DNA of 64,000 bases from a bacterium (GTDB lineage: Bacteria > Actinomycetota > Acidimicrobiia > Spongiisociales > Spongiisociaceae). The DNA lies in NCBI GenBank assembly GCA_028821235.1, contig JAPPGV010000128.1, positions 53,401-117,400 of the forward strand. Direction: 5' to 3'. The notes beneath the pieces were generated by a model. That model saw nothing but the letters and a program-made list of their open reading frames with translations, ran no database searches and had not been told where the DNA came from. The translations under genes were made by a program, and so were the position numbers. Positions 43,781 through 61,138 of this stretch are shown here, piece after piece (within the stretch, counting starts at the first letter, position 1; each line of letters opens with the position of its first letter).

Positions 43781-43807
43781 ATCTCACAATCACGATATGA
43801 TGTCCCT

Positions 43808-44167: not shown

Positions 44168-44243
44168 CGGCGGCGCCCGTTCACTCCAGGATCCCGCTCG
44201 TGACACTGCCAACCCGTGTGACCGGAATCGGAACGCAGCACGG

Positions 44244-45770
44244 TCAAGCGACCGGGCCTACCACGGCCTCGACCGCATCCACCAGGGCCTCCCGCTTGAG
44301 AAGTTCCTCAGCTGCGGCGAGTTCCGGTGACAGGATGCGATCCGGGCCTGGTCCTGGCACGCAGCTTCGCAACAGCCTGACGGCCGCGGCGGTGCCGGCC
44401 GCCGGCTCCAGGGGTGCGCGGAGTTCCACGGCCCTTGCGGCGGTGACCCACTCGATTGCCAGGATACGGCGTACGTTCTCGATCACCAGGCGGAGCTTGC
44501 GGGCCGCGGACCAGCCCATCGAGACGTGATCCTCCTGCATGGCGGAGGTGGGGTAGGAGTCGACCGAGGCGGGGGCGGCCAGGCGCCGGTTCTCGGCGCA
44601 CATGGCGGCCGCGGTGTACTGGCCGATCATGAGACCGCTGTCGACGCCGGGATCGTCCGCGAGGAAGGGTGCCAGGCCATGCGAGCGGTTGTGATCGAGC
44701 AGGCGGTCCAGGCGCCGCTCGGCGATCGCCCCCACCTCGGCCAGGGCGATCGCCAGGTAGTCGGCGGCCAGAGCGACCGGGGCCCCGTGGAAGTTGCCGC
44801 ACGACTCGACCCGTCCGTCCGGCAGGACCATCGGATTGTCGATGGCAGACTCGAGTTCCCTCCAGGCGACCTCCGTCACGAAACCGAGCGTGTCACGAGC
44901 CGCGCCGTGAACCTGCGGCGTGCAGCGCACCGAGTACGCGTCCTGAACCCGGAGGTCGCCACTGCGGTGACTGGCGACGATCGGGGATCCGGCCAGGATG
45001 TTGCGCAGGTTGGCAGCGCTCGTCGCCTGTCCCGGATGTGGCCTCAGTGCCTGAAGGTCGGCTGCGAATGCCCGGTCGGTGGCCAGGAGACCCTCGACGG
45101 TGAGCGCCGCCACGATGTCGGCGTCGGCGAGCAGGAACTCGGCATCGTATATCGCAAGGCAGAGCATTCCCAGGATGCCGTCGGTGCCGTTGGTGAGCGC
45201 CAAGCCCTCTTTCTCGGCCAGCACCACCGGCGCGATCCCCTCTCGCGCCAGGACATCGGCGGCGCGGGTGGATCCGCCGCCGGTAACCACCTCACCCTCA
45301 CCCATGAGGACCAAGCCGACGTGGGCCAGCGGGGCCAGGTCCCCGCTCGCCCCGAGGGAGCCATACTCCGGCACCCTGGGGACGATCCCGGCATTCAGCA
45401 GGCGGACGAGACCCTCGGCGACTACCGGCCGTGCGCCCGAGTACCCGAGCGCCAAGGTACGAGCCCGCAGGAACATCATGGCCCTGACCACTTCGGTTTC
45501 CACAGGAGGCCCCATCCCCGCTGCGTGGGAACGGATCAGCGAACGCTGCAGGTCGGCCCTTCGTTCAGCGGGAATCGTGGTGGTCGCCAGAGCACCGAAC
45601 CCGGTCGTGACTCCGTATGCCGGGTCACCCTCCGCCAGGTGTTCGACGATGGAGCGAGCGCTGCTCATGCGCTTCAACGCTGCATTCGTAAGGCGTACTT
45701 CCACCCCTCGGCGGGCAACATCGACCACATCCGAAAGGGTCACTCCAGGGCCATCAAGACTCAACGTCAT
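44244..45770 (-). CDS. hutH: Histidine ammonia-lyase
   Basis: YGVTTGFG, RSHAAG, MIO-forming GASGD, QDAYSVRC, QEDHVSMG. Confidence 0.95.
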   Translation of the reverse strand: MTLSLDGPGVTLSDVVDVARRGVEVRLTNAALKRMSSARSIVEHLAEGDPAYGVTTGFGALATTTIPAERRADLQRSLIRSHAAGMGPPVETEVVRAMMFLRARTLALGYSGARPVVAEGLVRLLNAGIVPRVPEYGSLGASGDLAPLAHVGLVLMGEGEVVTGGGSTRAADVLAREGIAPVVLAEKEGLALTNGTDGILGMLCLAIYDAEFLLADADIVAALTVEGLLATDRAFAADLQALRPHPGQATSAANLRNILAGSPIVASHRSGDLRVQDAYSVRCTPQVHGAARDTLGFVTEVAWRELESAIDNPMVLPDGRVESCGNFHGAPVALAADYLAIALAEVGAIAERRLDRLLDHNRSHGLAPFLADDPGVDSGLMIGQYTAAAMCAENRRLAAPASVDSYPTSAMQEDHVSMGWSAARKLRLVIENVRRILAIEWVTAARAVELRAPLEPAAGTAAAVRLLRSCVPGPGPDRILSPELAAAEELLKREALVDAVEAVVGPVA

Positions 45771-45780
45771 CCAAACACCC

Positions 45781-46488
45781 TTACCGTGGCAGGAGGGCGA
45801 GCGAGGTCTCCACAGCGGCTTCTACTACGGCCTCGGTGATGAGATCGAGGCGATCTCCGACCATCCGCTCGGCGGGGCCCAGCACCGAGAAGGCGCCTGC
45901 GATCCCCATCGACCACTGGATGGGTGCGACCACCGCGGTCACGTCCGGTTCGATAGCGCCGGTATTGAAGAAGGGCGCAGGGCGCTTGCCGAACCGGATG
46001 TCCTTGCTCGTCAGAGCCTCCCCCACCGCCGTACCTTCGATGGGCACCGACTTGCCCACCCATCCGACATGGCGGATGGCTCGCCGGCTCTCGACCGTAG
46101 CGATGTAGACGGCCTCGGTCCCGTCCCTGACCGCCAGGTAGGCGGACTCTTCGGTCACCTCCGCCAAGTGCTGAAGGGCCGGCTGGGCCGCCGCGGTCAG
46201 TCGGGCGTACGGACCCGACTGGAAGGCGGCGAGCGCTATCCGCACGAAACTCGGCCCGACCGAATACCTACCCAGGTCATTTCGCACCAGATAACCATGG
46301 CCGGTCAGGACCCGAAGGTGGCGAAGGGCGGTGCTGATCGGTATGCCGGTCTCCGCGGCAGCGTCGGTCAAGGCGACCGATCCCCCGGTCACCACCGTGT
46401 CGAGCAGGCGAAGGACCCTCCCCGCGGACCGCGATGCATGCAGCGTCGACCCGCCTCGGCTTGTGGATTCTGTTCGTGTGACGGTCAC
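45781..46488 (-). CDS. IclR-family transcriptional regulator (probable Hut regulator)
   Basis: N-terminal HTH (SAGRVLRLLD...PISTALRHL) and IclR C-terminal domain (GTAVGEAL); sits between hutH and hutU. Confidence 0.88.
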   Translation of the reverse strand: MTVTRTESTSRGGSTLHASRSAGRVLRLLDTVVTGGSVALTDAAAETGIPISTALRHLRVLTGHGYLVRNDLGRYSVGPSFVRIALAAFQSGPYARLTAAAQPALQHLAEVTEESAYLAVRDGTEAVYIATVESRRAIRHVGWVGKSVPIEGTAVGEALTSKDIRFGKRPAPFFNTGAIEPDVTAVVAPIQWSMGIAGAFSVLGPAERMVGDRLDLITEAVVEAAVETSLALLPR

Positions 46489-46526
46489 TCTTGCTCAACC
46501 ATTCCTCTGACCGTGTGGTCAGCTTG

Positions 46527-46586
46527 ATTTCAGTATCTGAAATAGACTTCTAGTTATTGACAGAATAGACCCGGGCTCTCTAATAT
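46527..46586 (+). promoter_or_regulatory. Palindromic operator plus hutU promoter
   Basis: ATTTCAG-TAT-CTGAAAT perfect inverted repeat at 46527-46543; TTGACA (46557-46562)-N18-TAATAT (46581-46586). Confidence 0.6.
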
Positions 46587-46640
46587 TCAAGAAGTACTTT
46601 CACCTTTCGAGAACCCATCCGTGCAGATCCGAGGCCTGCA

Positions 46641-48332
46641 ATGACGGCAAACAGGAAACCCAGCACAGGCGCGCCGACCGGAGGTGTCCGCGCTCCCACC
46701 GGCACCGGTCTGACCTGTCGCGGCTGGCCGCAGGAAGCCGCCTTCCGCATGCTGCAGAACAACCTCGATCCCGAGGTCGCCGAACGTCCTGACGACCTCG
46801 TGGTCTACGGCGGTACCGGCCGCGCGGCCAGATCGTGGGACGCGTACCGCGCCATGATCCGGACCCTCACTTCCCTCGCCGGCGACGAGACGATGCTCGT
46901 CCAGTCCGGGAAACCCGTGGGAGTCCTCCGCACCCACGAATGGGCACCGCGAGTGTTGATCGCAAACTCCAACCTCGTCCCCGACTGGGCCCACTGGGAC
47001 GAGTTCCGGCGCCTAGAACACCTCGGACTGACGATGTACGGGCAGATGACGGCCGGGTCGTGGATATACATCGGCACCCAGGGGATCCTGCAGGGCACCT
47101 ACGAGTGCTTCGCCGCCATCGCGCGGAAGCGATTCGGCGGTTCCCTGGCCGGAACCCTCACCGTCACCGCCGGGCTGGGAGGGATGGGTGGCGCCCAACC
47201 CCTGGCCATCACGATGAACGACGGGGTGGCCCTGTGCATCGAGGTCGACCCCGACCGGGCGGAACGCCGCGTCGAGACCCGGTACCTCGACGTCGTGGCC
47301 CACAGCTACGCGGACGCCCTGCGCCTCTGTACGGAGGCAGTTGCAGCCCGCCGGCCCCTTTCGGTGGGGTTGGTCGGGAACGCGGCGGATCTGGTGCCAC
47401 AACTCCTGGCCGACGGAGTCGCCGCCGACATAGTGACCGATCAGACCTCCGCTCACGATCCGCTGACCTACGTCCCCAATGGCCTGTCTCTCGACGAGGC
47501 CACCGAACTCCGGGACGCCAAACCCGACGAGTACGTCGGGCGCTCCCGCGCCGCCATGGCTGCCCACGTCGAGGCCATGGTCGGCTTCCTCGACGCGGGG
47601 GCGGAGGTGTTCGACTACGGAAACAGCCTGCGGGCCGAGGCCGAACTCGGCGGATACGACCGGGCGTTCGCCTATCCGGGTTTCCTGCCCGCCTACATAC
47701 GGCCCCTCTTCTGCGAGGGCAAGGGACCATTCCGCTGGGTGGCGCTCTCGGGTGACCCGGCAGACATCGAGGCAACCGACCGGGCTGTACTCGAGGAGTT
47801 CCCCGACGACGAGGGCCTCGCACGTTGGATCAGGCTGGCCGGGGAAAGGGTTGCTTTCCAGGGGCTTCCCGCCCGGATCTGCTGGCTGGGCTACGGCGAG
47901 CGCCACCGGCTGGGGTTGCGGTTCAACGACATGGTCCGCTCCGGCGAGTTGAAGGCCCCGATTGTGATCGGGCGCGATCACCTCGACTCCGGATCGGTCG
48001 CCTCGCCCTACCGCGAAACCGAGGACATGGCGGACGGCAGCGATGCCATCGCAGACTGGCCGCTTCTCAACGCGCTGGTCAACACGGCCTCGGGCGCAGC
48101 ATGGGTCAGCATCCACCACGGTGGAGGGGTCGGGATCGGCCGGTCGATACATGCCGGACAGGTGTGCCTCGCCGACGGCACCGACCTGGGAGCCGAGAAA
48201 CTGGAGCGGGTGCTTCTCAACGATCCAGCGACCGGAGTCATGCGCCACGTGGACGCCGGTTACGAGTTGGCCGCGCGGGTGGCCTCCGACCGGGGAGTAC
48301 GCGTACCGATGGCGGAGACGAGACCTCGATAG
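46641..48332 (+). CDS. hutU: Urocanate hydratase
   Basis: [39 protein letters not shown]. Confidence 0.96.
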
Positions 48333-49873
48333 TGGCCGCACGGCGTCGACGCGGAGGACGGCGAGCCCGGGTAGCGAAGCGCGGACCCTCGAACCCGCAG
48401 CGGGCCTTCCGCCAGCCCCGCCTCCCCTGGGAGCCGGTAAGGGCGGTTTCCGCCGACGAACTCGAAGCCATCCACGAGGCGTCCCTGAAGGTGCTCCGCG
48501 ATGTCGGGATGGACATCCTGCACCACGACGCCAGGGCGATGCTCCGTCGGGAGGGCGCCGAAGTCGATCCCGACTCCGCTCGGGTGCGGTTCGATCCCGG
48601 CATGATCACCGAACTGGTCGGCTGCGCGCCGGGCGGGTTCACGCTGCACGCCCGCAACCCTTCCCACCACGTCCACCTCGGAGGACGCTCGGTGGCGTTC
48701 ACAGCTGTGGCCAGCCCACCCAACGTCTCCGGCCTCGGCCGTGACCGGCGCGCCGGCAACCGGGAGGACTTCAGACAACTCATCCGCCTTAGCCAGCATC
48801 TGAACGTCGTCCACCTCCACGGTGGCTACCCGGTCGAGCCCACCGACGTCCATCCATCCGTCCGACACCTGCACGCCACCTTCGACCTGCTTACCCTCAG
48901 CGACAAGGCCATCCACACCTACAGCCTCGGACGGCAGCGGACCCTGGACACCATCGAGATGGCCCGCATCGCCCGCGGGATACACGAGGACGACCTCGAC
49001 ACCCAGCCGTCGATCTACACGATCGTCAACACGTCGTCCCCACTCCGCCTGGACACCCCCATGATCGAGGGGATCCTCGAGTTGTCGATCCGGAACCAGC
49101 CGGTGGTGATCACCCCGTTCACGCTGGCCGGGGCGATGGCGCCGGTGACCATCGCCGGGGCTCTCGTACAGCAGAACGCGGAGGCCCTGGCAGGAATCGC
49201 GCTCACCCAGGCCGTTCGCAGGGGAGCACCGGTGGCATACGGGGGGTTCACATCCAACGTCGATATGCAATCCGGGGCGCCCGCCTTCGGCACCCCCGAG
49301 TACCTTCAGGCCGCTCTCATAGGCGGCCAACTGGCGCGACGCTACCGCCTCCCCTACCGATCCTCGAATGCCAACGCCTCCAACGCGGTCGACCTCCAAG
49401 CCACCTACGAGAGCATGTTCTCGCTCTGGGGCGCGGTCATGGGGGGAGCCAACCTGATACTGCACGCGGCCGGATGGCTCGAAGGCGGGCTCAGAGCGTC
49501 GTTCGAGAAGATGGTGCTGGACGCCGATCTGCTGCAGATGATCTGCGCGGCATTGGAGCCGCCAGTTACCGACGAGGGCGCGCTGGCGCTCGAGGCGATC
49601 GCAGATGTGGGCCCGGGAGGTCACTTCTTCGGGACCGCCCACACCCAAGCCCGTTACCGGGAGGCCTTCCATGCTCCGCTGCTGTCGGATTGGAGCAACT
49701 TCGAGTCCTGGGAGGAGGCCGGCCGGCCCGACCCCGCCCAGCGAACGGTTTCGCTAGCTCGCAAGTTCCTCGACGATTACGAGCAACCACCTATGGAGCC
49801 GGCCGTCCGTGAGGAACTGGAGGAGTTCGTGGGCCGCCGCGTCGCCGAGGGCGGCGTAGCGACCGACTATTGA
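48332..49873 (+). CDS. mttB: Trimethylamine methyltransferase (MttB) superfamily protein, non-pyrrolysine
   Basis: NTSSPLRLD, YGGFTSNVDM, HAAGWLEGGL, SFEKMVLD; no in-frame TAG; GTG overlaps the hutU stop. Confidence 0.88.
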   Translation: MAARRRRGGRRARVAKRGPSNPQRAFRQPRLPWEPVRAVSADELEAIHEASLKVLRDVGMDILHHDARAMLRREGAEVDPDSARVRFDPGMITELVGCAPGGFTLHARNPSHHVHLGGRSVAFTAVASPPNVSGLGRDRRAGNREDFRQLIRLSQHLNVVHLHGGYPVEPTDVHPSVRHLHATFDLLTLSDKAIHTYSLGRQRTLDTIEMARIARGIHEDDLDTQPSIYTIVNTSSPLRLDTPMIEGILELSIRNQPVVITPFTLAGAMAPVTIAGALVQQNAEALAGIALTQAVRRGAPVAYGGFTSNVDMQSGAPAFGTPEYLQAALIGGQLARRYRLPYRSSNANASNAVDLQATYESMFSLWGAVMGGANLILHAAGWLEGGLRASFEKMVLDADLLQMICAALEPPVTDEGALALEAIADVGPGGHFFGTAHTQARYREAFHAPLLSDWSNFESWEEAGRPDPAQRTVSLARKFLDDYEQPPMEPAVREELEEFVGRRVAEGGVATDY

Positions 49874-49883
49874 AAGGAGTCGA

Positions 49884-50561
49884 GTGCAACCTGTCCGTTA
49901 CAGCCCTGTGCGTCTGCGTACCGACCTGAACCCCGCCGGCCATCCCTGCGCCGAGGTCCGGCATTACGAGGCGGATCTTGCCGTCCTCAATCGCCTGCTG
50001 GCAGACCTGCGCGTCCTACTTCTGCAGACCAAGACCGGCGAAGCGACTCTCCGTCCCTACCAGCTCATCAACTGGCACGAGGACGGACTGAGACGCAGGG
50101 TCGTGATGTGCGATCCGGCAACCCTCTTGACGGGTGCGGATGTGCTGATCGTCGGCTTCATCGGGAACCGGCGTTCGACCGAAGAGGCCAACCAGATCGA
50201 CGAGTTCGACTTCGACGTGATCTCCGAGTTCCGCCAGTACCCCGGGATACTCAGCTACAGCTCCATGGAGCTGATCCCGAACCAGTGGGCGAACCTGGTG
50301 GTTCACCAGGAGGTCGGGGACCGGGAAGCCTGGCGACACAGCGCCATTCACATAGAAGCAGCCGAGGATCTGTCTCCCCGGGTGTTCCACAGCGTCCGCA
50401 TCCACAACGGGCGGGTACGCGGAGGCCCGGTCGGAGACGGCAGCGTGATCGTTGAGGTCTCCAAGTATTGGGACTACGACTCGGACCCGATGTGGCATGC
50501 CGTCCGGACGATCCCGGGGGGAGTCACGACTGCGGACCACCCTCGGTGGAACCCGCGATGA
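49884..50561 (+). CDS. Hypothetical protein (possible dimeric alpha/beta-barrel-like C-terminal half)
   Basis: AAGGAG SD; stop overlaps the def start (ATGA). No family motif recognised with certainty. Confidence 0.7.
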   Translation: MQPVRYSPVRLRTDLNPAGHPCAEVRHYEADLAVLNRLLADLRVLLLQTKTGEATLRPYQLINWHEDGLRRRVVMCDPATLLTGADVLIVGFIGNRRSTEEANQIDEFDFDVISEFRQYPGILSYSSMELIPNQWANLVVHQEVGDREAWRHSAIHIEAAEDLSPRVFHSVRIHNGRVRGGPVGDGSVIVEVSKYWDYDSDPMWHAVRTIPGGVTTADHPRWNPR

Positions 50562-51127
50562 CAGTTCGCCGGATCCTCTCGGTGGGCCACCCGACGTTGC
50601 GAGTACGGGCGGCGGAGGTAGCGAACGAGGACATCCCGACCCCGGCCATCCAGGAACTGATCGACGATCTCATCGACACGATGCGCCACGCCAACGGCTC
50701 GGGGATCGCCGCCAACCAGATTGGAGAGACGGTCCGGATCATGGTGATGGAGGTCGACGAGAACCCACGCTACCCCTACAAGCCACCCATCCCCCTTACG
50801 GTGGCCATCAATCCACGGTTCGAGCCACTCGACGACGAGACGGTCGTGATCAACGAGGGGTGCCTGTCCGTGCCATTACGGGGCGAACTGAAACGGTCGG
50901 TGAACCTGCGGGTTCGTTATGCCGACCGCGATGGGCTCCACCACCGACAGGTACTCCGGGGCCTGACAGCCGGGACCTGGCAGCACGAGTGCGACCACTT
51001 GGACGGGGTGCTGGTAGTCGACCGGATCGATCCGAAGACCCTCAGCACCTGGGAGGAGTTCGACCGGCATCACCGCGACGCTTTCGTAGAACGTATCAAC
51101 CGGTTCGTGGCCGAGGTCGGGTCATGA
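50558..51127 (+). CDS. def: Peptide deformylase-fold metallohydrolase
   Basis: GSGIAANQ, EGCLS and QHECDH motifs; start ATG 50558. Confidence 0.9.
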   Translation: MTVRRILSVGHPTLRVRAAEVANEDIPTPAIQELIDDLIDTMRHANGSGIAANQIGETVRIMVMEVDENPRYPYKPPIPLTVAINPRFEPLDDETVVINEGCLSVPLRGELKRSVNLRVRYADRDGLHHRQVLRGLTAGTWQHECDHLDGVLVVDRIDPKTLSTWEEFDRHHRDAFVERINRFVAEVGS

Positions 51128-52491
51128 CCAGCCGCTACTGGTGCGAACTGGCCTGGCTCGGAGGTGCCCAAGCCACCCCGGGGGTCGTGATCGAAGTGGC
51201 AGGGGGTCGGATAGTCTCGGTCGCGTCCGGCCGGGCCACTGCGCCCCGCAGCGCCGTCGAGCTGCCCGGACTGACCATCCCGGCCCTGGCCAACGTCCAT
51301 AGCCACGCGTTCCACCGGGCGCTGCGGGGCCGGACGCATGGCGGGAGCGGAACCTTCTGGACCTGGCGCGACCTGATGTACGGGGTGGCGGCCAACCTGG
51401 ATCCCGACAACTACTACCACCTCGCCCGGGCCACCTTCGCCGAGATGGCCCTGGCAGGCATCGGGGTGGTCGGCGAATTCCACTACATCCACCACAGGCC
51501 CGGCGGGGGCCGCTACGACGACCCCAACGCGATGGGGCTCAGCCTGGTAGCCGCGGCGCGGGACGCCGGGATCCGCCTGACCCTGCTCGACACGCTCTAC
51601 CTTCACGGAGGCTTCTCCTCCAAGTCGGGGTCGGGGTATGCGCCTCCCGGTCCGGAACAGGCCAGGTTCAGCGACGGATCCGTGCGTGCCTGGACGGAGC
51701 GGGTGGCGCGGTTGACGGCCGGTGTCTCCGGGTCGCTCGCGAAGGTAGGGGCGGCGGTCCACTCGGTGCGCGCCGTCGACCCATCCTCGATCGAAACAGC
51801 GGCCCAATGGGCGGGCGAGAACGGCCTGCCACTCCACGTTCACGTGTCCGAACAGCCGGACGAGAACCGGGCGTGCCTGGATGTGCACGATCGGACCCCC
51901 ACCGCGGTGCTGTCCGATGCGGGCGCGCTAGGGCCCGACACCACCCTTGTCCATGCCACCCACCTTTCCGACCACGACATCGCCCTGATCGGCGAGGCCA
52001 GGGCAACCTGCTGCATCTGCCCCACGACCGAGCGCGACCTGGCAGATGGGATCGGTCCCAGCCGGAGTCTCCTCGATGCCGGGGCCACGCTGTGCGTCGG
52101 ATCCGACTCCCACGCGGTGATAGACATCCTGGAGGAGGCTCGCGCGGTGGAGCTGGGCCAGCGAGTCCTGACCAACCGCCGCGGGCTCCACTCGAGCCCG
52201 GCCCTCGCCTCGATCGCCACCGCCAACGGATACAGGGCGCTCGGATGGCGGGACGGAGGAGTCATCGGACCGGGCCGCCTCGCCGATTTCACCACCGTGG
52301 GGCTGGACTCGGTCCGCCTCGCAGGTATCGACGCCTGCAACGCCCTGGACGCGGTGATGTTCGCCGCCTCCAGCGCCGACGTGAACCACCTCGTCATCGG
52401 CGGTCGGCGGGTCGTAACCGGAGGCGCCCATGTATCGATCGACGTTCCGGCCGAACTGGAATCTTCGATCGCCAAGGTGGTGGCGACGTGA
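51124..52491 (+). CDS. hutF: Formimidoylglutamate deiminase
   Basis: [49 protein letters not shown]; ATG 51124 overlaps the def stop. Confidence 0.92.
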
Positions 52492-53687
52492 CTGTGGTGA
52501 TCGACAACATCGGGGAGTTGGTCACCAATGATCCTGCAGCCGGGACGGGACCTCTCGGGATCATCGAGAACGCGTCGGTGGTGACCGACGGTGATTACGT
52601 CTTGGCGGTCGGGCCTGCGGGCGCGGTAGCGGACGAGCGCCTCGACGTAGGGGGTAGGTGCGTTCTGCCCGGCTTCGTCGACTCCCACACCCACCTGGTC
52701 TTCGCAGGAGACCGGGCGGAGGAGTTCACGCGGCGGATGGCGGGTGAGGACTACGACGGGGGTGGGATCCGGGTCACTACCGAGGCCACCAGGACAGCAG
52801 GCCGGCCGGCGCTCCGGGCGGGTTTGGCCCAGCACCTGGAGGAACTCAGGCGGGCCGGTACCACCACCGTGGAGATCAAGTCCGGCTACGGATTGTCGGT
52901 CGAGTCAGAGGTCACGACCACGTCGTTGGCGGGAGAAGTGACCTCCGAGACCACCTTCATGGGCGCTCATGTCGTCCCGACCGAGTACCTGGGGCGGACC
53001 GACGACTACGTCGACCTGGTGTGCGGACCGATGCTGCAAGCTGTTCGACCCCATGTCCGCTGGATCGACGCCTTCTGCGAGGAAGGCGCCTTCGACGTGG
53101 ACCAATCCAGGGCGGTTCTAGAAGCGGGCCGGGCTGCCGGCCTCGGTCTGCGCCTTCATGCCAACCAACTGGATTACGGCCCCGGCGTGCAACTCGGCGT
53201 TGAGATGGGCTGCGCGTCCGTCGATCACTGCACCTACCTCTCGAATGGAGACATCGAGGTCCTCGCCGCGGGCGACACCGTGGCCACCTTCCTTCCTGCC
53301 GCGGACTTCTCCACCCGCCAGCCGTACCCCGACGCACGTCGGGTCATCGACGCCGGAGCGACCGTGGCGATCGCCTCCAACTGCAATCCCGGATCGAGCT
53401 ACACGACCTCCATGTCCTTCTGCATCGCTCTGGCGGTACGCGACATGAACATGACAATCGACGAAGCGATCGCCGCCGCCACCACCGGCGGGGCAGCAGC
53501 CCTGCAACGGCGCGACATCGGGAGGCTCGCTCCCGGTGGCCCGGCCCACCTCACCATCCTCGACGCACCGAGCCGCCACCACCTCGCCTACCGCCCTGGC
53601 GTGCCGCTGATCTGGCGGACCCTCGGCTCCGACTACGTCCAACCGTCCACCGAACACGAATCCCGAAGCAGAAAGGCAAGCCCATGA
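52488..53687 (+). CDS. hutI: Imidazolonepropionase
   Basis: [37 protein letters not shown]; GTG 52488. Confidence 0.93.
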
Positions 53688-55141
53688 ACCTCCCCAACCC
53701 CACCGGACACAATCAGTGGTACCCGTTCGCCAACCGTCCCCTACCTCCCGAGGTCGACGGTTGCCTGGTCAACCCGCCGGCGATACCGGTCTTCGACCCT
53801 ATGCCCCTGCCGGGGAGCGCCCGGTTCGTGGTGGTCGGCGCCGGTGTCCACGGGCTGTCGAGCGCTTACCACCTGGCCATGTATCTTGAGCGATCCGGCA
53901 AGGGCAAGGGCAGCGACGTCGTCCTGATCGACAAGCAAGGTCCCGGAGCCGGAGCCACGGGCCTGGCCTGCGGATGCGTCCGCAACCTCTACATGACCAA
54001 CCAGCTGCACGCCATCCTGCGGGCCAGCGTGGAGGTCTGGGAGTCCGACCCAGTGAACTTCGGCTTCCAGCAGGTCGGTTACGTGTCGGTCGGCGAAGCG
54101 AACCAGTATGAGGACTACATCGAGCTCCACGCCTCACAGGCGGCCAGCGGCTACCCATCGGACCTCTACACGGGATCGGACGCCCATGCCTTCCTGACCA
54201 AGCTGTGGCCTGACTTCAAGACCGAGAACTGTGACGTCGTGCTCCACGAGCACCGCTCTGGATACGCCGGGACGCACATCGCGGTGTGGGGCCTCGACCA
54301 GAAGTGCCGCCAGTGGGGCGTGCAGCGTGTCTACGGGACCACGGTCACCGGCTACCGCCGGGACGCATCCGGGTCCGTGACGGCGGTCGAGACGGACCAG
54401 GGATCGATCTCGTGCGAGCAGGTCGTGGTCGGTGCGGGCGCGTGGACACCCACGCACTGGGAGTGGCTCGGCGGCCCGTCACACCTCGACGTCGTGTATC
54501 CCGACGGTCACACCGAGGAACAGATGGACATGTGGACCTACTGGCGCCTCCTGGAAGGTGAAGTACTCCTCCCCGAGGGCGTGGACTTCCGTACCGCCCA
54601 GTACCGGGACTCACCGGTCCTGCACGTGGAACTGCTGGACACGCCCGTCTACGGCGAGGACGGGACGATGATCAAGGACCACACCTACGTGTACACCCGC
54701 TACGCGGCCGAGCGAGTCGGTGCTCCGGGCCTCCAGGGAGGGACGATCCCCATCAAGATCGGTCCTCGGGCGGAGGTCGAGCCCTACGGGCACCTCAACG
54801 ACCTCTACCAGGCGGAAGACTGGTTCGCCGACTACTACTGCTCCGCCCTCGGCATGCTCTTCAAGCGGCTCGAGAACCTGAGGCCCTACTTCAAGGAGCG
54901 GCGGAACGGAGGAATCGGAGCCTTCACACCGGACAACGTGCCGGTGTTCGATCATGTCGCCGACAACGCGTGGGTGATCGCCGACTCCAACCATGGGTTC
55001 AAGATGATCGGGGTGGGCAAGCTCACGGCTCAGATGCTGGTCTACGGCGACAAGCCCGACGAACTGAAACCGTTCACCCTGGACCGGTACCGGACCGGCG
55101 GGACCTTCGGAGACAGGAACTCGAACAGCCCGTGGGTCTAG
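53684..55141 (+). CDS. FAD-dependent oxidoreductase (DAO / sarcosine oxidase beta-like)
   Basis: GAGVHG Rossmann motif, [23 protein letters not shown]; ATGA overlap with hutI. Confidence 0.85.
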
Positions 55142-55226
55142 GGTGCTGACCAGATCACCGGTAGCAGCAGGTCCCTCGATGAGGTAGGCCAGGGCTCGCC
55201 GGGCCGCGGCACGAGGACGGTATTCG

Positions 55227-56042
55227 TTGAACACACCCGTAGAGGCGCCTCTCCGAGCCGCAACCTACCTGGGCGACAACACGGTCGCGATCATGGCCGA
55301 TCTGGTCCGGTACCTGTCGGAGGCGACAGGCATCGAGGTAGTGATCGATCGCACGGTTGGGCGAAGTACCGCGGCGGCGCGTCAAGAAGCTCCCAATCTG
55401 GACCTAGTGTGGATGTGCGGGTACATGACCGAGTCGCTCATCTCGGCGGGTCGGATGTCCCATACCATCGTGGCCGTGCCGGTCTTCGCCGGACACGGAG
55501 GACCGGTCTACCACTCGGTGATCGTCACCCGGCCAGACGGCCCCCGGACGCTGCTTGCTGCACTGGACACCAGGCTGGCCGTGAACGAGATCGAGTCGTG
55601 GTCCGGCTTCCTAGGACTCAAGGCCCATGTCGAGCACTGCCGTCCCGGTTCCTGGTTCACCGATCAGACGGTCACCGGGTCGCATCGGGCCTCGATCCGG
55701 GCGGTGGCTGAACGGGAATGTGACGTGGCAAGCATCGACGTCACGATCTGGGACCACGTCGTCGCCACCGAACCCGAAGCGGCCGCCGACCTCCGCACCA
55801 TCGACCGCACTGTGGACTGGCCGGCCCCACCGTTCAGCTTGACGGCCAACCTGGAACTCGAACAGCGCGACATCGTGACTGCGGCTCTACTCGCGATCAG
55901 ACCCTCGGACATTGCCTCCTTGGACGGCGTCGCCCCGGCCAACTCCTGTCTCTACCGGGACGTGATGCCTGTCCGGCCACCTGGGATTCCGGTTCGTCGA
56001 TCCTCGAAGCGCGAGACCCATAACGGAAGTGATCGCAACTGA
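55227..56042 (+). CDS. PhnD/SsuA/transferrin-like solute-binding protein
   Basis: WMCGY, VYHSVIV, SWSG and TGSHRASIRAV...DVASID resemble PhnD-like proteins. Confidence 0.7.
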   Translation: MNTPVEAPLRAATYLGDNTVAIMADLVRYLSEATGIEVVIDRTVGRSTAAARQEAPNLDLVWMCGYMTESLISAGRMSHTIVAVPVFAGHGGPVYHSVIVTRPDGPRTLLAALDTRLAVNEIESWSGFLGLKAHVEHCRPGSWFTDQTVTGSHRASIRAVAERECDVASIDVTIWDHVVATEPEAAADLRTIDRTVDWPAPPFSLTANLELEQRDIVTAALLAIRPSDIASLDGVAPANSCLYRDVMPVRPPGIPVRRSSKRETHNGSDRN

Positions 56043-56088
56043 AGCAACTCCGGGGCGGGTCGGTACCGGCGCCGACGGCCCAGGTTCG

Positions 56089-57723
56089 CTACGGGTCCAC
56101 CGCCGGCTCGATGCGGGCGGAAGGGCGGACCTTCTTGCCGTTCAACATCGTTCCGATCGGGGTGTATCTGACCAGGAACTGATAGCTCAACAGAAGGACC
56201 GCTGTAACCAGCGCCGAGATCATCAGGAACTTGACCTCTGCCGGAAGGTCCCAGTCGCGTACGACCGCTTGGGCGACCACCACCACCGGAAGGTGGGCGA
56301 GGTACAGCCAGTACGAGGAGTCGGAGAGGTAACGGACTCCCCGGCGTTCCCTTGGCAGCAACGCTCGAAATAGCCCGATCAGGCCGAAGCACACCCCCCA
56401 CGCGTAGGCAACCTGCAGCACCGACGCCACCAGCCAGGAGAACGCCACCTCGCCGAAGGTGACAAACAGTCCGGCGTTCACGCCCGCTGCCTGGCCTTCC
56501 CACGCGAAGTGGAGTGCCACCTCGCCGAAGGTGAAAACCAGTCCGGCAGGGAACGCGACCAGGAACGAGATCGGCAGATAAAGCCACCATCGTCCCCCGA
56601 TCGTGTCGACCAGCAACCTGCCCCTACGTCCCCGGCGCCGGTACATCAGCGCCCCGAAGGTGAAGAAGGTGGCGTAGTAGGCCAGGACGTGGGGAAGCGG
56701 AACGAAGCCGTCCGAGGTGTCGGGCCCGAAGACGGGATAGGCGCCACCCCCGCCCATGGACAGCTGCGGCACAATAGTGAGGGGGATCATCGACCACATG
56801 ACCCACCGGGGCCAGTTTTCTTGCCGAGCGCTTTGGCGGTCCCGGCGGTCCAGCGCCCAGGCGATGATCGCAAACCCTGCCACCAGCCAGAGGAGGAACC
56901 AGAGGAACCACAGGTGATAGAAACGTTGGATGGAGGATAGGTCCAGCCCGTCGGCCGAGCCGTTGCCGTCGTCCTGCTCGGCAGCGCCTGCTTCCCAACC
57001 CGGGATCTCCGACCACTCCATCCCATCGGGCAGCGGATCCCCGCCTCCGTAGGAAACCAGCAGGTCGGCCGCCTCCGCGTGGCCGAAGTGGAAGGCAACC
57101 CCGAGGGGTGTCTCCCCCTCCGAGGCGGTGGCGACGGGCGCTGGCTCCGCTCCGCGAGACAGGAGCAGGTCCAGCATCTCGGTATCGCCACCGAAGGCAG
57201 CGGCGTGGAGAAGTGTCCACCCACCCGGCTCCCCCCGGAGGTCGACATCGAAGCCTCTGTCCAGCAGTTGCTCCACCCCGGAAACATCACCGGCGAAGAC
57301 CTTGCCCCAGATGTCATCGTCCTCCACCAGCGCCGCGGGTGCGGACCCGGCCGCCCAGTCACCGACGAACGTGGTCAGCGGGACGATCGTCAACAGGCCG
57401 AGCAAGAGCGGGAGCGCCACCCGACGAAGCCGGTGGTTCAGGAGGGCGCCGAGCCCCCGGCGCTGCCACAGCAGGGCGGTGAAGAACCCGCTCATCAGGA
57501 AGAACACGGGCATCCGGAACCCATGGACGGCCCACAGGAACTCGTCGAACAGCCCGTCGAACGCCGACCTGCGGTCCTGGACCCACCACGGCGCGGGGAA
57601 GAAGGCCAGCGAAGCGTGGAGGCAGATGCCCAGCAGCATGGCGAAACCCCGCAGCGCGTCGAGGTCGTACCGGCGACGCTCCCCGGAAGGCAATGGCGAC
57701 GAAGGACGTTCCACTGGGGTCAA
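56089..57723 (-). CDS. Acyltransferase family 3 (OpgC/MdoC-like) membrane protein with inserted ankyrin repeats
   Basis: RYDLDALR, FRMPVFFLMSG, YHLWFL, SYWLYLAH; internal WTLLHAAAFGG and ETPLGVAFHFGH ankyrin-type motifs. Confidence 0.82.
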   Translation of the reverse strand: MTPVERPSSPLPSGERRRYDLDALRGFAMLLGICLHASLAFFPAPWWVQDRRSAFDGLFDEFLWAVHGFRMPVFFLMSGFFTALLWQRRGLGALLNHRLRRVALPLLLGLLTIVPLTTFVGDWAAGSAPAALVEDDDIWGKVFAGDVSGVEQLLDRGFDVDLRGEPGGWTLLHAAAFGGDTEMLDLLLSRGAEPAPVATASEGETPLGVAFHFGHAEAADLLVSYGGGDPLPDGMEWSEIPGWEAGAAEQDDGNGSADGLDLSSIQRFYHLWFLWFLLWLVAGFAIIAWALDRRDRQSARQENWPRWVMWSMIPLTIVPQLSMGGGGAYPVFGPDTSDGFVPLPHVLAYYATFFTFGALMYRRRGRRGRLLVDTIGGRWWLYLPISFLVAFPAGLVFTFGEVALHFAWEGQAAGVNAGLFVTFGEVAFSWLVASVLQVAYAWGVCFGLIGLFRALLPRERRGVRYLSDSSYWLYLAHLPVVVVAQAVVRDWDLPAEVKFLMISALVTAVLLLSYQFLVRYTPIGTMLNGKKVRPSARIEPAVDP

Positions 57724-57996
57724 AGAGTCAACCCGAAGGGTCGGGGCGCCCGAGGATAGGCGGTAGTGGAACTCCCCGTGAGTTCCTCCCCCGGATCATG
57801 GTAAACGCCGCTACCAATCGCCCCATCGGGTCCCGATGGTTCTCGTCGGTGGATCCTGCTCGTCGGCACTGGGGAACGGAACGTAATCGGTCTGTCCGGC
57901 CGACGCCCTGTGTGTCTGGACAAAAGGCATGTAACGGCTGCAGCATCCGAGAGCCACGATCACCGGAAGAGTCGAAGAGTCGCGCGAACCTCTTCC

Positions 57997-58800
57997 TCAG
58001 ACGATCCCCTCATCGCCCGCCAGGCGCTCGACAACGGCTCGCTGGTCGCCATCCAGGTACGGAGGGCTCCCCGCAATTGTGTTGAGGCGGGCGTGGTCTC
58101 GCTTGGTTGTGGCGGGTATGACTACATGGACGCGGCTGTCGGACAGCACCCATTTGAGTAGCGCCTCCGACCAGGAACGGACTCCCAGCCGTTCGATCTC
58201 GGATGGATCGGGTGGGTGGAGAAGCGCCCCTTCCGCGAAGGGCCGCATGACGATGACGCCGAGGCCGAGTTCTTCTGCGAGCGGGAGGACTCTCTGTTCA
58301 ACAACCCGCTCCCATGGATTGTATGGGATCTGGATAGCGTCGATGCGGCCGGTATTCATGACCACCTCGAGTTCATCGAATGCTCCCTGATCCAGATGGG
58401 TCGCTCCTATCAGCCCGATCCGACCCCGGTCTCGTTCCTCCTCGAGAAACGAGAGGTGGGCTCTCCACGCGACGAGGTTGTGCACCTGCTCCAAGTCGAT
58501 CCGCCCGAACAGTTCGACCTGGCGAGCGAACTGCCGGCGTCCCTCGGTCTGGGATGGTGTCCATATCTTGGTGGCGACGATGCTCTCGCTCCGGTAGTCG
58601 GCCAGCGCTCTCGACAGGACCGCTTCCGAGCGCCCGTACATCGGAGAGGTGTCGAAGAGGCGGGTTCCTCCGCCGAAGGTCTCCGCCACGACGTCGGAGG
58701 CAGTGGCCTGGCGAGAGGCCGGAAGATCGAAGGTTGACCATGTACCCAGACCTACGACGGGGACCTCCAGGCCGGTGGAACCGAAGGCTCGTATCTCCAT
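57997..58800 (-). CDS. Aldo/keto reductase
   Basis: GLGTW, FDTSPMYG, ATK, QVHN, VIPATT. Confidence 0.88.
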   Translation of the reverse strand: MEIRAFGSTGLEVPVVGLGTWSTFDLPASRQATASDVVAETFGGGTRLFDTSPMYGRSEAVLSRALADYRSESIVATKIWTPSQTEGRRQFARQVELFGRIDLEQVHNLVAWRAHLSFLEEERDRGRIGLIGATHLDQGAFDELEVVMNTGRIDAIQIPYNPWERVVEQRVLPLAEELGLGVIVMRPFAEGALLHPPDPSEIERLGVRSWSEALLKWVLSDSRVHVVIPATTKRDHARLNTIAGSPPYLDGDQRAVVERLAGDEGIV

Positions 58801-61082: not shown

Positions 61083-61138
61083 TCGTTGACCGTTGACGGA
61101 TACAAGCCACCAGCCACCAGCCACAAGCCACTAGCTAG
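61083..61138. repeat. Degenerate 7-bp tandem repeat array (8 units)
   Basis: tcgttga-ccgttga-cggatac-aagccac-cagccac-cagccac-aagccac-tagctag. Confidence 0.65.

What the first reader, a model, noticed from the sequence alone, without database searches (positions are those of the whole stretch)
46641..56042. hut operon extended with a quaternary-amine methyltransferase and an N-methyl-amino-acid oxidase-like flavoprotein: candidate demethylative pathway for methylated histidines (hercynine)
Seen: hutU-mttB-hyp-def-hutF-hutI-FAD oxidoreductase form a chain with overlapping stop/start codons (TAGTG at 48330, ATGA at 50558, 51124 and 53684, GTGA at 52488). The only gap is 10 nt containing an SD (mttB-hyp), so the extra genes appear to be true operon members. 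Established: non-pyrrolysine MttB proteins demethylate quaternary amines such as glycine betaine, proline betaine and carnitine; DAO/sarcosine-oxidase-like flavoproteins oxidatively demethylate N-methyl amino acids; known ergothioneine breakdown uses a trimethylammonia lyase that lacks MIO. HutH here keeps its ASG (MIO) motif, so it should act on unmethylated His. Inference: trimethyl-His is demethylated by MttB, the di-/mono-methyl-His by the flavoprotein, and His then enters HutH-U-I-F. I do not know of this route having been described.
Basis: partly seen in the sequence, partly recalled or inferred. Interest (0 to 1): 0.85.

Follow-up and report, generated by a model that had tools for sequence, protein, structure and literature searches.

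The report
Histidine operon with demethylation genes
A sponge-associated actinobacterium keeps its histidine-breakdown genes in one operon with a betaine methyltransferase, a sarcosine-oxidase-like flavoprotein and two uncharacterised partner proteins, which suggests, without proving, an undescribed route that strips methyl groups from methylated histidines such as hercynine.

Summary
A single promoter and a palindromic operator lie upstream, divergent from IclR-hutH. At least 12 Acidimicrobiia MAGs or contigs (Ca. Spongiisociaceae/Poriferisodalis relatives) keep the same order, and every gene is under purifying selection.

The unit most consistently tied to hut is not MttB. It is a trio of hyp225 (tandem ABM-type fold), DAO485 (SoxB-like) and the PhnD-like protein. 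That trio sits with hut genes even where mttB and def are absent. It also occurs alone behind the same IclR and operator, and in other lineages beside different MttB clades or a BHMT-like methyltransferase. PhnD-like/hyp225 fusion proteins exist. One distant hyp225 homologue sits next to a MIO-less HAL homologue.

Against a hercynine-specific MttB: its nearest relatives (60-67% identity, same substrate-site residues) lie in choline/glycine-betaine-type clusters, and the window encodes no corrinoid protein.

The def-like gene is a plausible replacement for the missing HutG.

Best reading (confidence about 0.4): a demethylation module feeding N-alpha-methylated histidines into Hut. No such route was found in the literature searched. 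The known hercynine route is a trimethylamine lyase.

The parts
44244..45770 (-). hutH, histidine ammonia-lyase with an intact Ala-Ser-Gly (MIO) motif; lies downstream of the IclR gene on the minus strand
   Evidence: TIGR01225 658 bits (cut-off 539); GSLGASGDLAPL motif
45781..46488 (-). IclR-family regulator, divergent from the operon. Orthologues (52-60% identity) sit in the same position before hyp225-DAO-PhnD operons that lack hut genes
   Evidence: PF09339 + PF01614; orthologues in L090, L091, L101, L107
46528..46542 (.). Candidate IclR operator, the palindrome TTTCAGTATCTGAAA (TTTCA-N5-TGAAA). It is conserved upstream of hutU in relatives and upstream of hyp225 in hut-less relatives
   Evidence: Unique in the window, 0.02 expected by chance; conserved in L004, L007, L009, L093, L095, L090, L091, L101, L107
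46557..46586 (+). Sigma-70-like promoter TTGACA-18 nt-TAATAT. It is the only + strand promoter-like site found in the scanned region 44000-58000; one weaker site lies on the minus strand
   Evidence: TTGACA or TTGCAA conserved about 14 nt after the palindrome in relatives
46641..48332 (+). hutU, urocanate hydratase (not a thiourocanate hydratase)
   Evidence: TIGR01228 891 bits; thiourocanate and S-methyl-thiourocanate models below cut-off
48332..49873 (+). Non-pyrrolysine MttB-superfamily methyltransferase (513 aa). Candidate quaternary-amine (betaine):corrinoid methyltransferase; substrate unknown
   Evidence: PF06253 630 bits; PDB hits 4yyc, 2qne/9yce MtgB; Arg343 and His378 conserved, Ala127 and Gly386 in place of MtgB Tyr97 and Phe356
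49884..50561 (+). hyp225, an uncharacterised protein with a tandem ferredoxin-like (ABM/Dabb-type) alpha+beta fold. Conserved partner of the PhnD-like protein and DAO485
   Evidence: No Pfam, NCBIfam or PDB sequence hit; AF2 pLDDT 90; Foldseek; 50 invariant residues; family of 488 clusters; fusions with PhnD-like
50558..51127 (+). Peptide-deformylase-family metallohydrolase (189 aa). Proposed surrogate for the missing HutG (N-formyl-L-glutamate deformylase); inferred
   Evidence: PF01327 140 bits; NF001159 135.8 (cut-off 125); GIAANQ, EGCLS and HECDH motifs present; start and stop overlap both neighbouring genes (hyp225, hutF); no FGase-type HutG among the window genes scanned
51124..52491 (+). 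hutF, formimidoylglutamate deiminase
   Evidence: NF006681 594 bits (cut-off 362); TIGR02022 446 bits
52488..53687 (+). hutI, imidazolonepropionase
   Evidence: TIGR01224 341 bits (cut-off 298)
53684..55141 (+). DAO485, an FAD-dependent amine oxidase or dehydrogenase of the SoxB / DMG oxidase / MSOX / MTOX structural group. The most conserved protein of the operon (93-97% identity among sponge-clade relatives)
   Evidence: PF01266; below all NCBIfam cut-offs; AF2 pLDDT 87; Foldseek 3ada_B E 8e-27, TM 0.84; conservation
55227..56042 (+). PhnD-like periplasmic-binding-protein fold without a signal peptide and without ABC partner genes. Probable cytoplasmic partner of hyp225 and DAO485
   Evidence: PF12974 91 bits, PhnD equivalog far below cut-off; no room for a leader in the ORF; adjacent to hyp225 or DAO in many loci; fused to hyp225 in P0434 and P0471

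Best explanation
The locus is a composite catabolic operon under one IclR-controlled promoter.

Part 1 is a canonical five-step histidine pathway. HutH converts His to urocanate, HutU makes imidazolone-propionate, HutI makes formimino-Glu, and HutF makes N-formyl-Glu. The peptide-deformylase-like protein probably does the HutG step (N-formyl-Glu to Glu and formate).

Part 2 is an N-demethylation toolkit interleaved with part 1:
- MttB removes the first methyl from a quaternary amine, passing it to a corrinoid protein encoded elsewhere (as in the unlinked MtgB/MtgC/MtgD system of aerobic marine bacteria).
- The SoxB-like flavoprotein DAO485 then oxidatively removes the remaining N-methyl group(s) as formaldehyde. 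It probably works in a complex with the cytoplasmic PhnD-like protein and the tandem-ABM protein hyp225.

The substrate most consistent with the gene context is the N-alpha-methylated histidine series: hercynine to N,N-dimethyl-His to N-methyl-His to His. MttB extends the range to the betaine. The trio handles the tertiary and secondary amines. The MIO-containing HutH takes the resulting free histidine.

What is shown: gene identities, operon structure, conservation, the shared operator, the fold of DAO485 and hyp225, and the recurrent linkage of hyp225/DAO/PhnD-like with hut genes and with methyltransferases.

What is inferred: the substrate, the complex, the direction of flux, the role of the PDF-like protein, and the corrinoid partner.
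For: - Operon anatomy and family assignments.
- The full order is conserved in at least 12 MAGs or contigs, with hyp225 down to 51% and hutF down to 56% identity. All genes are under purifying selection.
- Collinear variants keep hyp225, DAO or PhnD-like with hut genes when mttB and/or def are missing: L104 hutU-hyp-hutF-hutI-DAO-PhnD, L095 hutU-hyp, L098 hutU-hyp-def, L096 hutU-mttB-hyp-hutF, L131 hyp-hutF-hutI.
- In a neighbour-joining tree of DAO, hut-containing arrangements bracket hut-less ones. That suggests an old linkage followed by losses.
- The same operator and promoter (TTTCA-N5-TGAAA then TTGACA) and an orthologous IclR precede hutU here and hyp225 in hut-less relatives. The Hut enzymes are therefore expressed under the regulator of the module, as expected if they act downstream of it.
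- Independent links of the hyp225/DAO module to first-step methyl-removing enzymes: other MttB clades divergent from hyp225 (L116, L118, L133), an MttB near DAO (L087), and a BHMT-like gene (NF005718, 400 bits, above cut-off) next to hyp225-MR_MLE-DAO in at least 8 contigs.
- A second link of hyp225 to histidine-betaine chemistry: in L166 a hyp225 homologue directly precedes a HAL homologue that lacks Ala-Ser-Gly but keeps the imidazole and carboxylate-binding residues, as ergothionase and histidine-betaine TMA-lyase do (bioRxiv 10.1101/2025.08.13.670108).
- DAO485 resembles SoxB, DMGO, DMGDH, MSOX and MTOX.
- MttB keeps the carboxylate-binding Arg and His of MtgB, so an amino-acid betaine is plausible (PMC13080624).
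- A missing linked corrinoid protein is normal in aerobes (PMC12478193).
Against: - No biochemical data exist for any of the four extra proteins.
- The nearest MttB outgroup (60-67% identity; the same Ala/Gly, Arg, His, Gly at the MtgB contact positions; only 10 clade-specific substitutions) sits in clusters with OpuAC-type transporters, aldehyde and alcohol dehydrogenases, a DMGDH-like gene and SoxA/B-like genes. These are glycine-betaine-type contexts.
- DAO485 orthologues of 76-84% identity work in loci without hut or mttB (L089-L091, L107, L084). The family is 64-80% conserved in Proteobacteria that show no hut linkage.
- L002 deleted the hut genes but kept mttB and DAO intact.
- No corrinoid-binding or pterin-binding methyltransferase lies in the 64-kb window.
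- Hercynine needs three demethylations, but only two demethylating enzymes are present.
- def is absent from some variants (L096, L104), so its HutG role is not general.
Confidence: 0.4

Rival explanations
1. The extra genes are a generic betaine or osmolyte demethylation module that merely shares a promoter with hut. MttB converts glycine betaine (or another small amino-acid betaine such as proline betaine) to the tertiary amine. DAO485 oxidises that product (dimethylglycine/sarcosine or N-methylproline). The only connection to histidine catabolism is co-regulation of nitrogen-rich, host-derived nutrients. No intermediate is shared.
For: - The closest MttB relatives outside the clade (60-67% identity) have identical residues at the four MtgB glycine-betaine-contact positions. 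They lie next to a DMGDH-like gene (37 loci), aldehyde dehydrogenase, OpuAC-type binding protein and SoxA/B-like genes.
- DAO485 takes the position that the DMGDH-like gene has there.
- The trio works without hut in L089-L091 and L107, and mttB+DAO survive deletion of hut in L002.
- The DAO family is widespread in marine Proteobacteria without hut linkage.
- A two-enzyme system fits a dimethyl betaine such as proline betaine better than the trimethyl hercynine.
- MtgB-type glycine betaine demethylation is common in aerobic marine bacteria (PMC12478193).
Against: - The hut linkage is to hyp225/DAO/PhnD-like even where mttB is absent (L104, L095, L098). It looks old on the DAO tree.
- Genes are interleaved with overlapping stop and start codons rather than juxtaposed.
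- Ten MttB positions distinguish the hut-linked clade from the betaine-cluster clade, several of them around the 378-388 active-site loop, plus F407A.
- A hyp225 homologue sits beside a MIO-less HAL homologue.
- The outgroup's context genes match only at family level; none reaches an NCBIfam equivalog cut-off.
Confidence: 0.3
2. hyp225, DAO485 and the PhnD-like protein act on some other histidine-related compound, or inside the Hut pathway itself. Candidates include D-histidine or another imidazole amine oxidised to the keto acid, ergothioneine-derived products, or handling of the unstable imidazolone-propionate. MttB is then an unrelated passenger acquired in one lineage.
For: - hyp225 lies directly after hutU or before hutF in several variants without mttB (L095, L098, L104, L131).
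- ABM-fold proteins are often cofactor-free oxygenases or isomerases.
- The DAO superfamily also contains D-arginine dehydrogenase, glycine oxidase and L-amino-acid deaminase among the structural neighbours.
- mttB and def are each present or absent independently of the rest.
Against: - The best structural and sequence neighbours of DAO485 are N-methyl or imino-acid oxidases, not primary-amine enzymes.
- The module recruits a methyl-removing enzyme (MttB of three clades, or a BHMT-like protein) repeatedly in unrelated arrangements.
- The trio is common without any hut gene nearby.
Confidence: 0.15
3. Sub-claim on the def-like gene: it is simply a second housekeeping peptide deformylase that rides in the operon, and N-formylglutamate is handled by an enzyme encoded elsewhere.
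For: - All three PDF motifs are intact, and the protein passes the NCBIfam PDF subfamily cut-off.
- def is missing from the otherwise equivalent operons L096 and L104.
Against: - Its stop and start codons overlap both neighbours, and it lies immediately before hutF, whose product is an N-formyl amino acid.
- It is conserved at 62-86% identity in 14 of the hut-linked loci.
- It is not next to fmt, and no FGase-type HutG was found among the window genes scanned.
- It falls just under the TIGR00079 equivalog cut-off (102.1 against 103.95).
Confidence: 0.35

Closest known systems
Five-step histidine utilisation pathway (HutH, HutU, HutI, HutF, HutG), as in Pseudomonas and Streptomyces; IclR-type HutR regulators are, from my own knowledge, known in Corynebacterium
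   Same: HutH with MIO, HutU, HutI and HutF all pass curated equivalog cut-offs. The regulator gene is divergent from the operon.
   Different: No HutG (FGase) is present, and a peptide-deformylase paralogue sits in its place. Four non-hut genes are interleaved. The same regulator and operator control a hut-less operon in relatives.
MtgB/MtgC/MtgD cobalamin-dependent glycine betaine demethylation (D. hafniense; aerobic Ruegeria pomeroyi), and MtpB, MtcB, MtyB of Eubacterium limosum (PMC13080624, PMC12478193, PMC8604678)
   Same: MttB-superfamily TIM-barrel protein without pyrrolysine. The carboxylate-binding Arg and His are conserved. The corrinoid partner is not necessarily linked, as in R. 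pomeroyi.
   Different: The aromatic pair Tyr97/Phe356 of MtgB is replaced by Ala/Gly. No MtgC, MtgD or RamA homologue lies in 64 kb. The next step is a 485-aa SoxB-like flavoprotein rather than a DMGDH-type fusion. The gene sits inside a hut operon.
Sarcosine oxidase beta subunit, dimethylglycine oxidase/dehydrogenase, monomeric sarcosine oxidase and N-methyltryptophan oxidase
   Same: Fold and FAD-binding domain (Foldseek E 1e-18 to 8e-27). The expected chemistry is oxidation of a secondary or tertiary N-methyl amine.
   Different: Only 17-21% identity. Below every curated cut-off. No SoxA/D/G partners and no folate-binding GcvT domain. Instead it has conserved PhnD-like and tandem-ABM partners.
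Ergothionase and histidine betaine trimethylammonia-lyase (HBTL), the known lyase routes for ergothioneine and hercynine (bioRxiv 10.1101/2025.08.13.670108)
   Same: They deal with the same class of compound and end in urocanate or thiourocanate, which enters Hut-like steps.
   Different: Those routes eliminate trimethylamine with a MIO-less HAL homologue. The window has only a MIO-containing HutH and no such lyase. The proposed route would instead demethylate to free histidine. MIO-less homologues do occur in related loci (L166, L031 and others).

Membership tests
Hut pathway (HutH-U-I-F-G type) | HutH with the Ala-Ser-Gly MIO motif, plus HutU, HutI and HutF passing equivalog models | tested here: met
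   (TIGR01225 658, TIGR01228 891, TIGR01224 341, NF006681 594 bits); ASG motif
Hut pathway (HutH-U-I-F-G type) | HutG, N-formylglutamate amidohydrolase (FGase family) | tested here: not met
   No such protein among the window genes scanned. A PDF-family gene occupies the slot next to hutF.
MttB superfamily, non-pyrrolysine quaternary-amine methyltransferase | Full-length PF06253 domain with no in-frame UAG | tested here: met
   (630 bits, profile positions 1-500 of 500)
MttB superfamily, non-pyrrolysine quaternary-amine methyltransferase | Carboxylate-binding Arg and His (MtgB R312, H348) | tested here: met
   R343 and H378, invariant in all 81 aligned homologues
MttB superfamily, non-pyrrolysine quaternary-amine methyltransferase | Cognate corrinoid protein, methylcorrinoid:THF methyltransferase and activase encoded nearby | tested here: not met
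   No B12-binding or pterin-binding protein in the window. This is not disqualifying, because they are unlinked in R. pomeroyi (PMC12478193).
MttB superfamily, non-pyrrolysine quaternary-amine methyltransferase | [quoted passage not shown] | not testable with these tools
   Needs an enzyme assay
MtgB (glycine-betaine-specific) | Aromatic cation-pi pair Tyr97 / Phe356 | tested here: not met
   Ala127 and Gly386. The same holds in the betaine-cluster outgroup, so this does not discriminate between substrates.
Sarcosine oxidase / N-methyl amino acid oxidase group (DAO, PF01266) | FAD-binding Rossmann domain and the overall two-domain fold | tested here: met
   PF01266 108 bits; Foldseek SoxB E 8e-27, TM 0.84
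Sarcosine oxidase / N-methyl amino acid oxidase group (DAO, PF01266) | Score above the curated cut-off of soxB, MTOX or soxA_mon models; SoxA/D/G partners or a GcvT domain | tested here: not met
   66, 58 and 42 bits against cut-offs of 529, 257 and 480. No such partner genes in the operon.
Peptide deformylase | Motifs G-x-G-x-A-A-x-Q, EGCLS and HExxH; family model above cut-off | tested here: met
   GSGIAANQ, EGCLS and HECDH present; NF001159 135.8 against 125; TIGR00079 102.1 against 103.95, just below
PhnD phosphonate ABC-transporter binding protein | Signal peptide or lipobox, adjacent phnC/phnE, and a score above the PhnD equivalog cut-off | tested here: not met
   No leader is possible in the ORF. 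No ABC genes in the operon. TIGR03431 42.5 against 261. Only the PF12974 fold family is met.
ABM / dimeric alpha+beta barrel (Dabb) fold | Ferredoxin-like beta-alpha-beta repeat forming a barrel; Pfam ABM match | tested here: inconclusive
   AF2 pLDDT 90 with two beta-alpha-beta-beta units. The Foldseek hits are consistent with each other but weak (E 5e-4, TM on target 0.75). No Pfam hit.
Ergothionase / HBTL lyase route | HAL homologue lacking Ala-Ser-Gly | tested here: not met
   The window HutH has ASG. MIO-less homologues occur only in other loci.

The most novel reading that the evidence does not exclude
Marine and sponge Acidimicrobiia have a previously undescribed demethylative salvage route that turns hercynine (including hercynine left over from ergothioneine oxidation) into free histidine. 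A corrinoid-dependent MttB takes the first methyl. A new heteromeric flavoenzyme takes the others: the SoxB-like DAO485 with a cytoplasmic PhnD-fold subunit and a tandem-ABM subunit. A recruited peptide deformylase replaces HutG. This would give a first function to the hyp225 family and to the PhnD-like/ABM pair.
Probability: 0.3. Interest if true: 0.8.

Novelty: new variant of a known kind. Interest (0 to 1): 0.6.

Why it matters
Hercynine and ergothioneine are widespread histidine betaines. The only catabolic entries described so far are trimethylamine-releasing lyases. A demethylative route would recover intact histidine and feed methyl groups to C1 metabolism without making trimethylamine, which would change how these compounds are counted in marine and host-associated nitrogen and TMA budgets.

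Whatever the substrate, three results stand.
- The work defines a conserved three-protein module: a SoxB-like flavoprotein, a cytoplasmic PhnD-fold protein and an uncharacterised tandem-ABM protein (488 sequence clusters, no Pfam family). The module repeatedly pairs with MttB- or BHMT-type methyltransferases.
- It gives a candidate non-orthologous replacement of HutG by a peptide deformylase paralogue.
- It gives a defined operator/regulator pair that can be tested in vitro even though the organisms are uncultured.

Tried and rejected
1. HutU as a thiourocanate hydratase, i.e. an ergothioneine pathway. Rejected: it passes the urocanase equivalog and fails both thiourocanate models.

2. A corrinoid protein or MtgD-like gene in the window. 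None was found among about 45 genes scanned.

3. Using the four experimentally defined glycine-betaine-contact residues of MtgB to tell a hercynine enzyme from a glycine betaine enzyme. Uninformative: the hut-linked clade and the betaine-cluster clade have the same residues.

4. DAO485 as a truncated DMGDH. Rejected: no tblastn match to the DMGDH-like neighbours of outgroup MttBs, and only 18-21% identity to solved DMGDH and DMGO structures.

5. Sequence search of hyp225 against Pfam, NCBIfam and PDB. Nothing found. Only the fold search gave a lead.

6. The amidohydrolase next to MttB/PhnD-like/hyp225 in L116 as a HutI. Rejected: 26% identity.

7. Classifying the MIO-less HAL homologues with NCBIfam. 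The scan returned no ergothionase or HBTL family; they simply fall below the hutH cut-off.

8. Literature searches for MttB plus hercynine, for N-methylhistidine demethylase, and for the candidate genera. No relevant paper.

9. NCBIfam naming of the outgroup cluster genes. Only family-level matches; none reaches an equivalog cut-off.

Full report
**1. What is there**

The window is high-GC DNA (about 65%). Its closest public relatives are Acidimicrobiia MAGs named Ca. Spongiisociaceae, Spongiisocius and Poriferisodalis, with MttB up to 90% identical. The organism assignment is an inference from those hits.

On the plus strand, eight genes follow one another:

| Gene | Coordinates |
|---|---|
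| hutU | 46641-48332 |
| mttB | 48332-49873 |
| hyp225 | 49884-50561 |
| def-like | 50558-51127 |
| hutF | 51124-52491 |
| hutI | 52488-53687 |
| DAO-family flavoprotein (DAO485) | 53684-55141 |
| PhnD-like | 55227-56042 |

An IclR regulator (45781-46488) and hutH (44244-45770) are divergent from the operon.

The 152-bp intergenic region holds three features:
- the palindrome TTTCAGTATCTGAAA (46528-46542), unique in the window with 0.02 expected by chance;
- a TTGACA-18-TAATAT promoter (46557-46586);
- no other promoter-like site on the + strand anywhere in the scanned region 44000-58000.

Pfam and NCBIfam confirm the names. hutH, hutU, hutI and hutF all exceed curated equivalog cut-offs. hutU is a urocanase, not a thiourocanate hydratase. 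MttB is a full-length PF06253 protein without an internal stop. The def-like protein has all three deformylase motifs. The flavoprotein matches DAO, with sub-threshold similarity to soxB and N-methyl-Trp oxidase. hyp225 matches nothing. HutH keeps GASGDL.

**2. Conservation**

I scanned one genome per species with MttB and a metagenome collection with a hyp225 alignment. I then ran tblastn with all window proteins against the retrieved loci.

The complete order hutH/IclR | hutU-mttB-hyp225-def-hutF-hutI-DAO-PhnD appears in L004-L009, L036 and L092-L094. It also appears, as far as the contigs reach, in L010 and L012. In those two, hyp225 and hutF are only 51-57% identical to the window, so the arrangement is not just recent common descent.

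Against L007, dN/dS is 0.05-0.29 for all ten genes. DAO485 is the most conserved protein, at 93-97% identity within the sponge clade.

**3. The arrangement is modular and collinear**

Variants found:

| Locus | Arrangement |
|---|---|
| L104 | hutH \| hutU-hyp225-hutF-hutI-DAO-PhnD (no mttB, no def) |
| L095 | IclR \| hutU-hyp225 |
| L098 | hutU-hyp225-def |
| L096 | hutU-mttB-hyp225-hutF (no def) |
| L097 | mttB-hyp225-DAO |
| L131 | hyp225-hutF-hutI |
| L089-L091, L101, L107 | (IclR \|) hyp225-DAO-PhnD, with no hut or mttB within 10 kb |
| L002/L011 | a 49-residue remnant of the hutU N-terminus, then mttB, then DAO: a deletion derivative |

DAO in the hut-less L091 is 84% identical to the window protein, and its IclR is 60% identical.

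The intergenic regions share the same TTTCA-N5-TGAAA palindrome, followed about 14 nt later by TTGACA or TTGCAA. This holds whether the first gene is hutU (window, L004, L007, L009, L093, L095) or hyp225 (L090, L091, L101, L107).

In a neighbour-joining tree of DAO (no support values), hut-containing arrangements (L010, L104) bracket hut-less ones. Together with the strict collinearity and the L002 remnant, this favours an old hut linkage with repeated block loss.

**4. The conserved core is hyp225 + PhnD-like, usually with DAO485**

- In more distant loci the PhnD-like gene lies directly next to hyp225 (L105, L108, L112, L115-L117, L119, L125, L136, L138, L143, L158, L163-L165, L170).
- Two proteins in the 1.84-billion-sequence library are fusions, with PhnD-like at the N-terminus and hyp225 at the C-terminus (P0434, P0471).
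- DAO-PhnD-like pairs occur without hyp225 (L084).
- The window's PhnD-like protein has no room for a signal peptide and no ABC partner genes. It is probably a cytoplasmic binding subunit.
- hyp225 has 50 invariant residues, among them several His, Arg, Tyr and Trp and one Cys. Its AF2 model is confident (pLDDT 90) and shows two ferredoxin-like units. The Foldseek hits are ABM/Dabb proteins with weak E-values.
- DAO485 also models confidently (pLDDT 87). Its best structural neighbours are SoxB, P. horikoshii L-proline dehydrogenase beta subunit, DMG oxidase/dehydrogenase, MSOX and MTOX. The protein is not a member of any curated family.

**5. Recurrent pairing with methyl-removing enzymes**

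Besides the window clade:
- hyp225 sits divergently next to MttBs of another clade (51-57% identity to the window protein; L116, L118, L133);
- a DAO487 lies 7 kb from a 47%-identical MttB (L087);
- in at least eight contigs a betaine-homocysteine-methyltransferase-like gene (NF005718, 400 bits, above cut-off) is divergent from hyp225-MR_MLE-DAO (L139-L141, L146-L150, L155).

This supports the general idea of a two-stage N-demethylation toolkit. A methyltransferase handles the quaternary amine, and a flavoprotein handles the tertiary and secondary amines.

**6. What argues for histidine derivatives**

- (a) The old, interleaved, translationally coupled linkage of the trio with hutU, hutF and hutI, even where mttB is absent.
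- (b) Expression of the Hut enzymes from the module's own IclR-controlled promoter.
- (c) In L166, a hyp225 homologue (35% identity) directly precedes a HAL homologue in which Ala-Ser-Gly is replaced by Thr-Ser plus a one-residue deletion. The catalytic Tyr and the imidazole and carboxylate-binding residues are kept. This is the signature of ergothionase and of the recently described histidine betaine trimethylammonia-lyase (bioRxiv 10.1101/2025.08.13.670108).
- (d) MttB keeps the carboxylate-binding Arg and His (PMC13080624).
- (e) HutH here needs a free alpha-amino group, so a methylated histidine can only enter the pathway after complete demethylation.

**7. What argues against**

- The 70 non-hut MttB loci (60-67% identity; Chloroflexota and Actinomycetota) carry a DMGDH-like gene directly downstream in 37 cases. 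They also carry aldehyde and Fe-alcohol dehydrogenases, OpuAC-type binding proteins, SoxA/SoxB-like genes and IclR regulators. These are family-level matches only.
- At the four MtgB glycine-betaine-contact positions these proteins and the window protein are alike: Ala/Gly, Arg, His, Gly.
- Only ten positions separate the two clades: 136, 204, 245, 297, 325, 355, 362, 383, 388 and 407.
- For scale, MtcB and MtyB, which have overlapping substrates, are 53% identical (PMC8604678).
- The trio functions without hut genes nearby, and L002 kept mttB and DAO after losing hut.
- The window has no corrinoid or pterin-binding protein. In aerobic marine bacteria, however, MtgC and MtgD are unlinked to mtgB (PMC12478193).
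- Hercynine needs three demethylations.

**8. The def-like gene**

HutF produces N-formyl-L-glutamate, and no FGase-type HutG is in the window. The deformylase paralogue overlaps hyp225 and hutF at both ends, is conserved at 62-86% identity in 14 of the hut-linked loci, and is not next to fmt. I infer that it is a HutG surrogate. Because def is absent from L096 and L104, this is not general, and I give the housekeeping alternative 0.35.

**9. Comparison with what is known, and verdict**

The known routes for histidine betaines are lyases: ergothionase and HBTL. I found no paper that links MttB to hercynine or describes an N-alpha-methylhistidine demethylase.

The locus is therefore a new variant of known kinds: a hut operon fused with a betaine-type demethylation toolkit that includes two uncharacterised partner proteins. 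The hercynine/methyl-histidine reading is the best single explanation (about 0.4). A generic betaine module sharing a promoter with hut remains a serious rival (about 0.3). Interest is 0.6.

Noticed in passing
L166:975-2483 (+); L031:1840-3300 (-); also L013, L026, L032, L047, L054: These HAL homologues lack the Ala-Ser-Gly MIO triad (GTS-D, GSA-D or GQA-D with a one-residue deletion) but keep the catalytic Tyr and the His, Gln, Arg and Glu substrate-binding residues. In L166 one directly follows a hyp225 homologue. In the Chloroflexota loci they lie 6-7 kb from MttB, beside an IclR gene and an OsmF-like binding protein. They are candidate betaine (hercynine or ergothioneine) trimethylammonia-lyases.
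   Followed up: partly
P0434, P0471 (proteins from the representative library): Natural fusion proteins with a PhnD-like domain at the N-terminus and a hyp225 domain at the C-terminus (453-456 aa). This argues that the two proteins work as one unit.
   Followed up: partly
L002:9801-13191 (same as L011, OZ241390.1): A relative with a 2.8-Mb genome has a 49-residue remnant of the hutU N-terminus fused in front of an intact mttB, followed by an intact DAO485. hyp225, def, hutF, hutI and the PhnD-like gene are gone. This is a caught-in-the-act deletion of the hut part.
   Followed up: yes
L139-L141, L146-L150, L155: A different recurring arrangement: a BHMT-like methyltransferase, divergent or upstream, then a hyp225 homologue, an enolase-superfamily (MR_MLE) gene, and a 55-58%-identical DAO on the opposite strand.
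   Followed up: partly
window 56089-57723 (-): A membrane acyltransferase (Acyl_transf_3) with ankyrin repeats inserted in its middle. It converges on the operon end and is conserved in the sponge-clade relatives. To my knowledge, ankyrin-repeat proteins are typical of sponge symbionts.
   Followed up: no
window 43141-43515 (-); L001:4702-5079; L002:9222-9605: A RidA (imine/enamine deaminase) gene lies close to the locus in the window and in two relatives, directly upstream of the hutU remnant in L002. It could mop up imines made by the flavoprotein.
   Followed up: no
window 19311-20312 (+): A group II intron reverse transcriptase/maturase ORF (RVT_1 + GIIM). The RT match starts at profile position 100, so it is possibly truncated.
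   Followed up: no
window 38723-41615 (-): A McrBC-type restriction system: an AAA_5 GTPase-like McrB (39927-41615) and McrC (38723-39934). Two DUF4143 AAA ATPases lie at 29326-30669 and 41729-43012.
   Followed up: no
window 6719-7684, 8121-9095, 13695-14618 (+): Three paralogous phosphotriesterase-family (PTE) genes lie within 8 kb. They are interspersed with two TPP enzymes, a class-III aminotransferase and an SDR.
   Followed up: no
window 20748-23033 (-), 23509-25995 (-), 26715-29261 (+): Three large subunits of molybdenum hydroxylases (xanthine dehydrogenase / CO dehydrogenase family) lie side by side. Similar Mo-hydroxylase genes flank hyp225-DAO-PhnD in L089 and L090.
   Followed up: no
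window 43700-44167 (+): A small ORF matching the archaeal PaREP1/PaREP8 family (PF05942, E 1e-18) in a bacterial genome, just downstream of hutH.
   Followed up: no
window 61135-63991 (-): A hydantoinase B/oxoprolinase gene (62255-63991) and an acetamidase/formamidase-family gene (61135-62028) lie 5-8 kb downstream of the operon. The hydantoinase A partner would lie beyond the window end.
   Followed up: no
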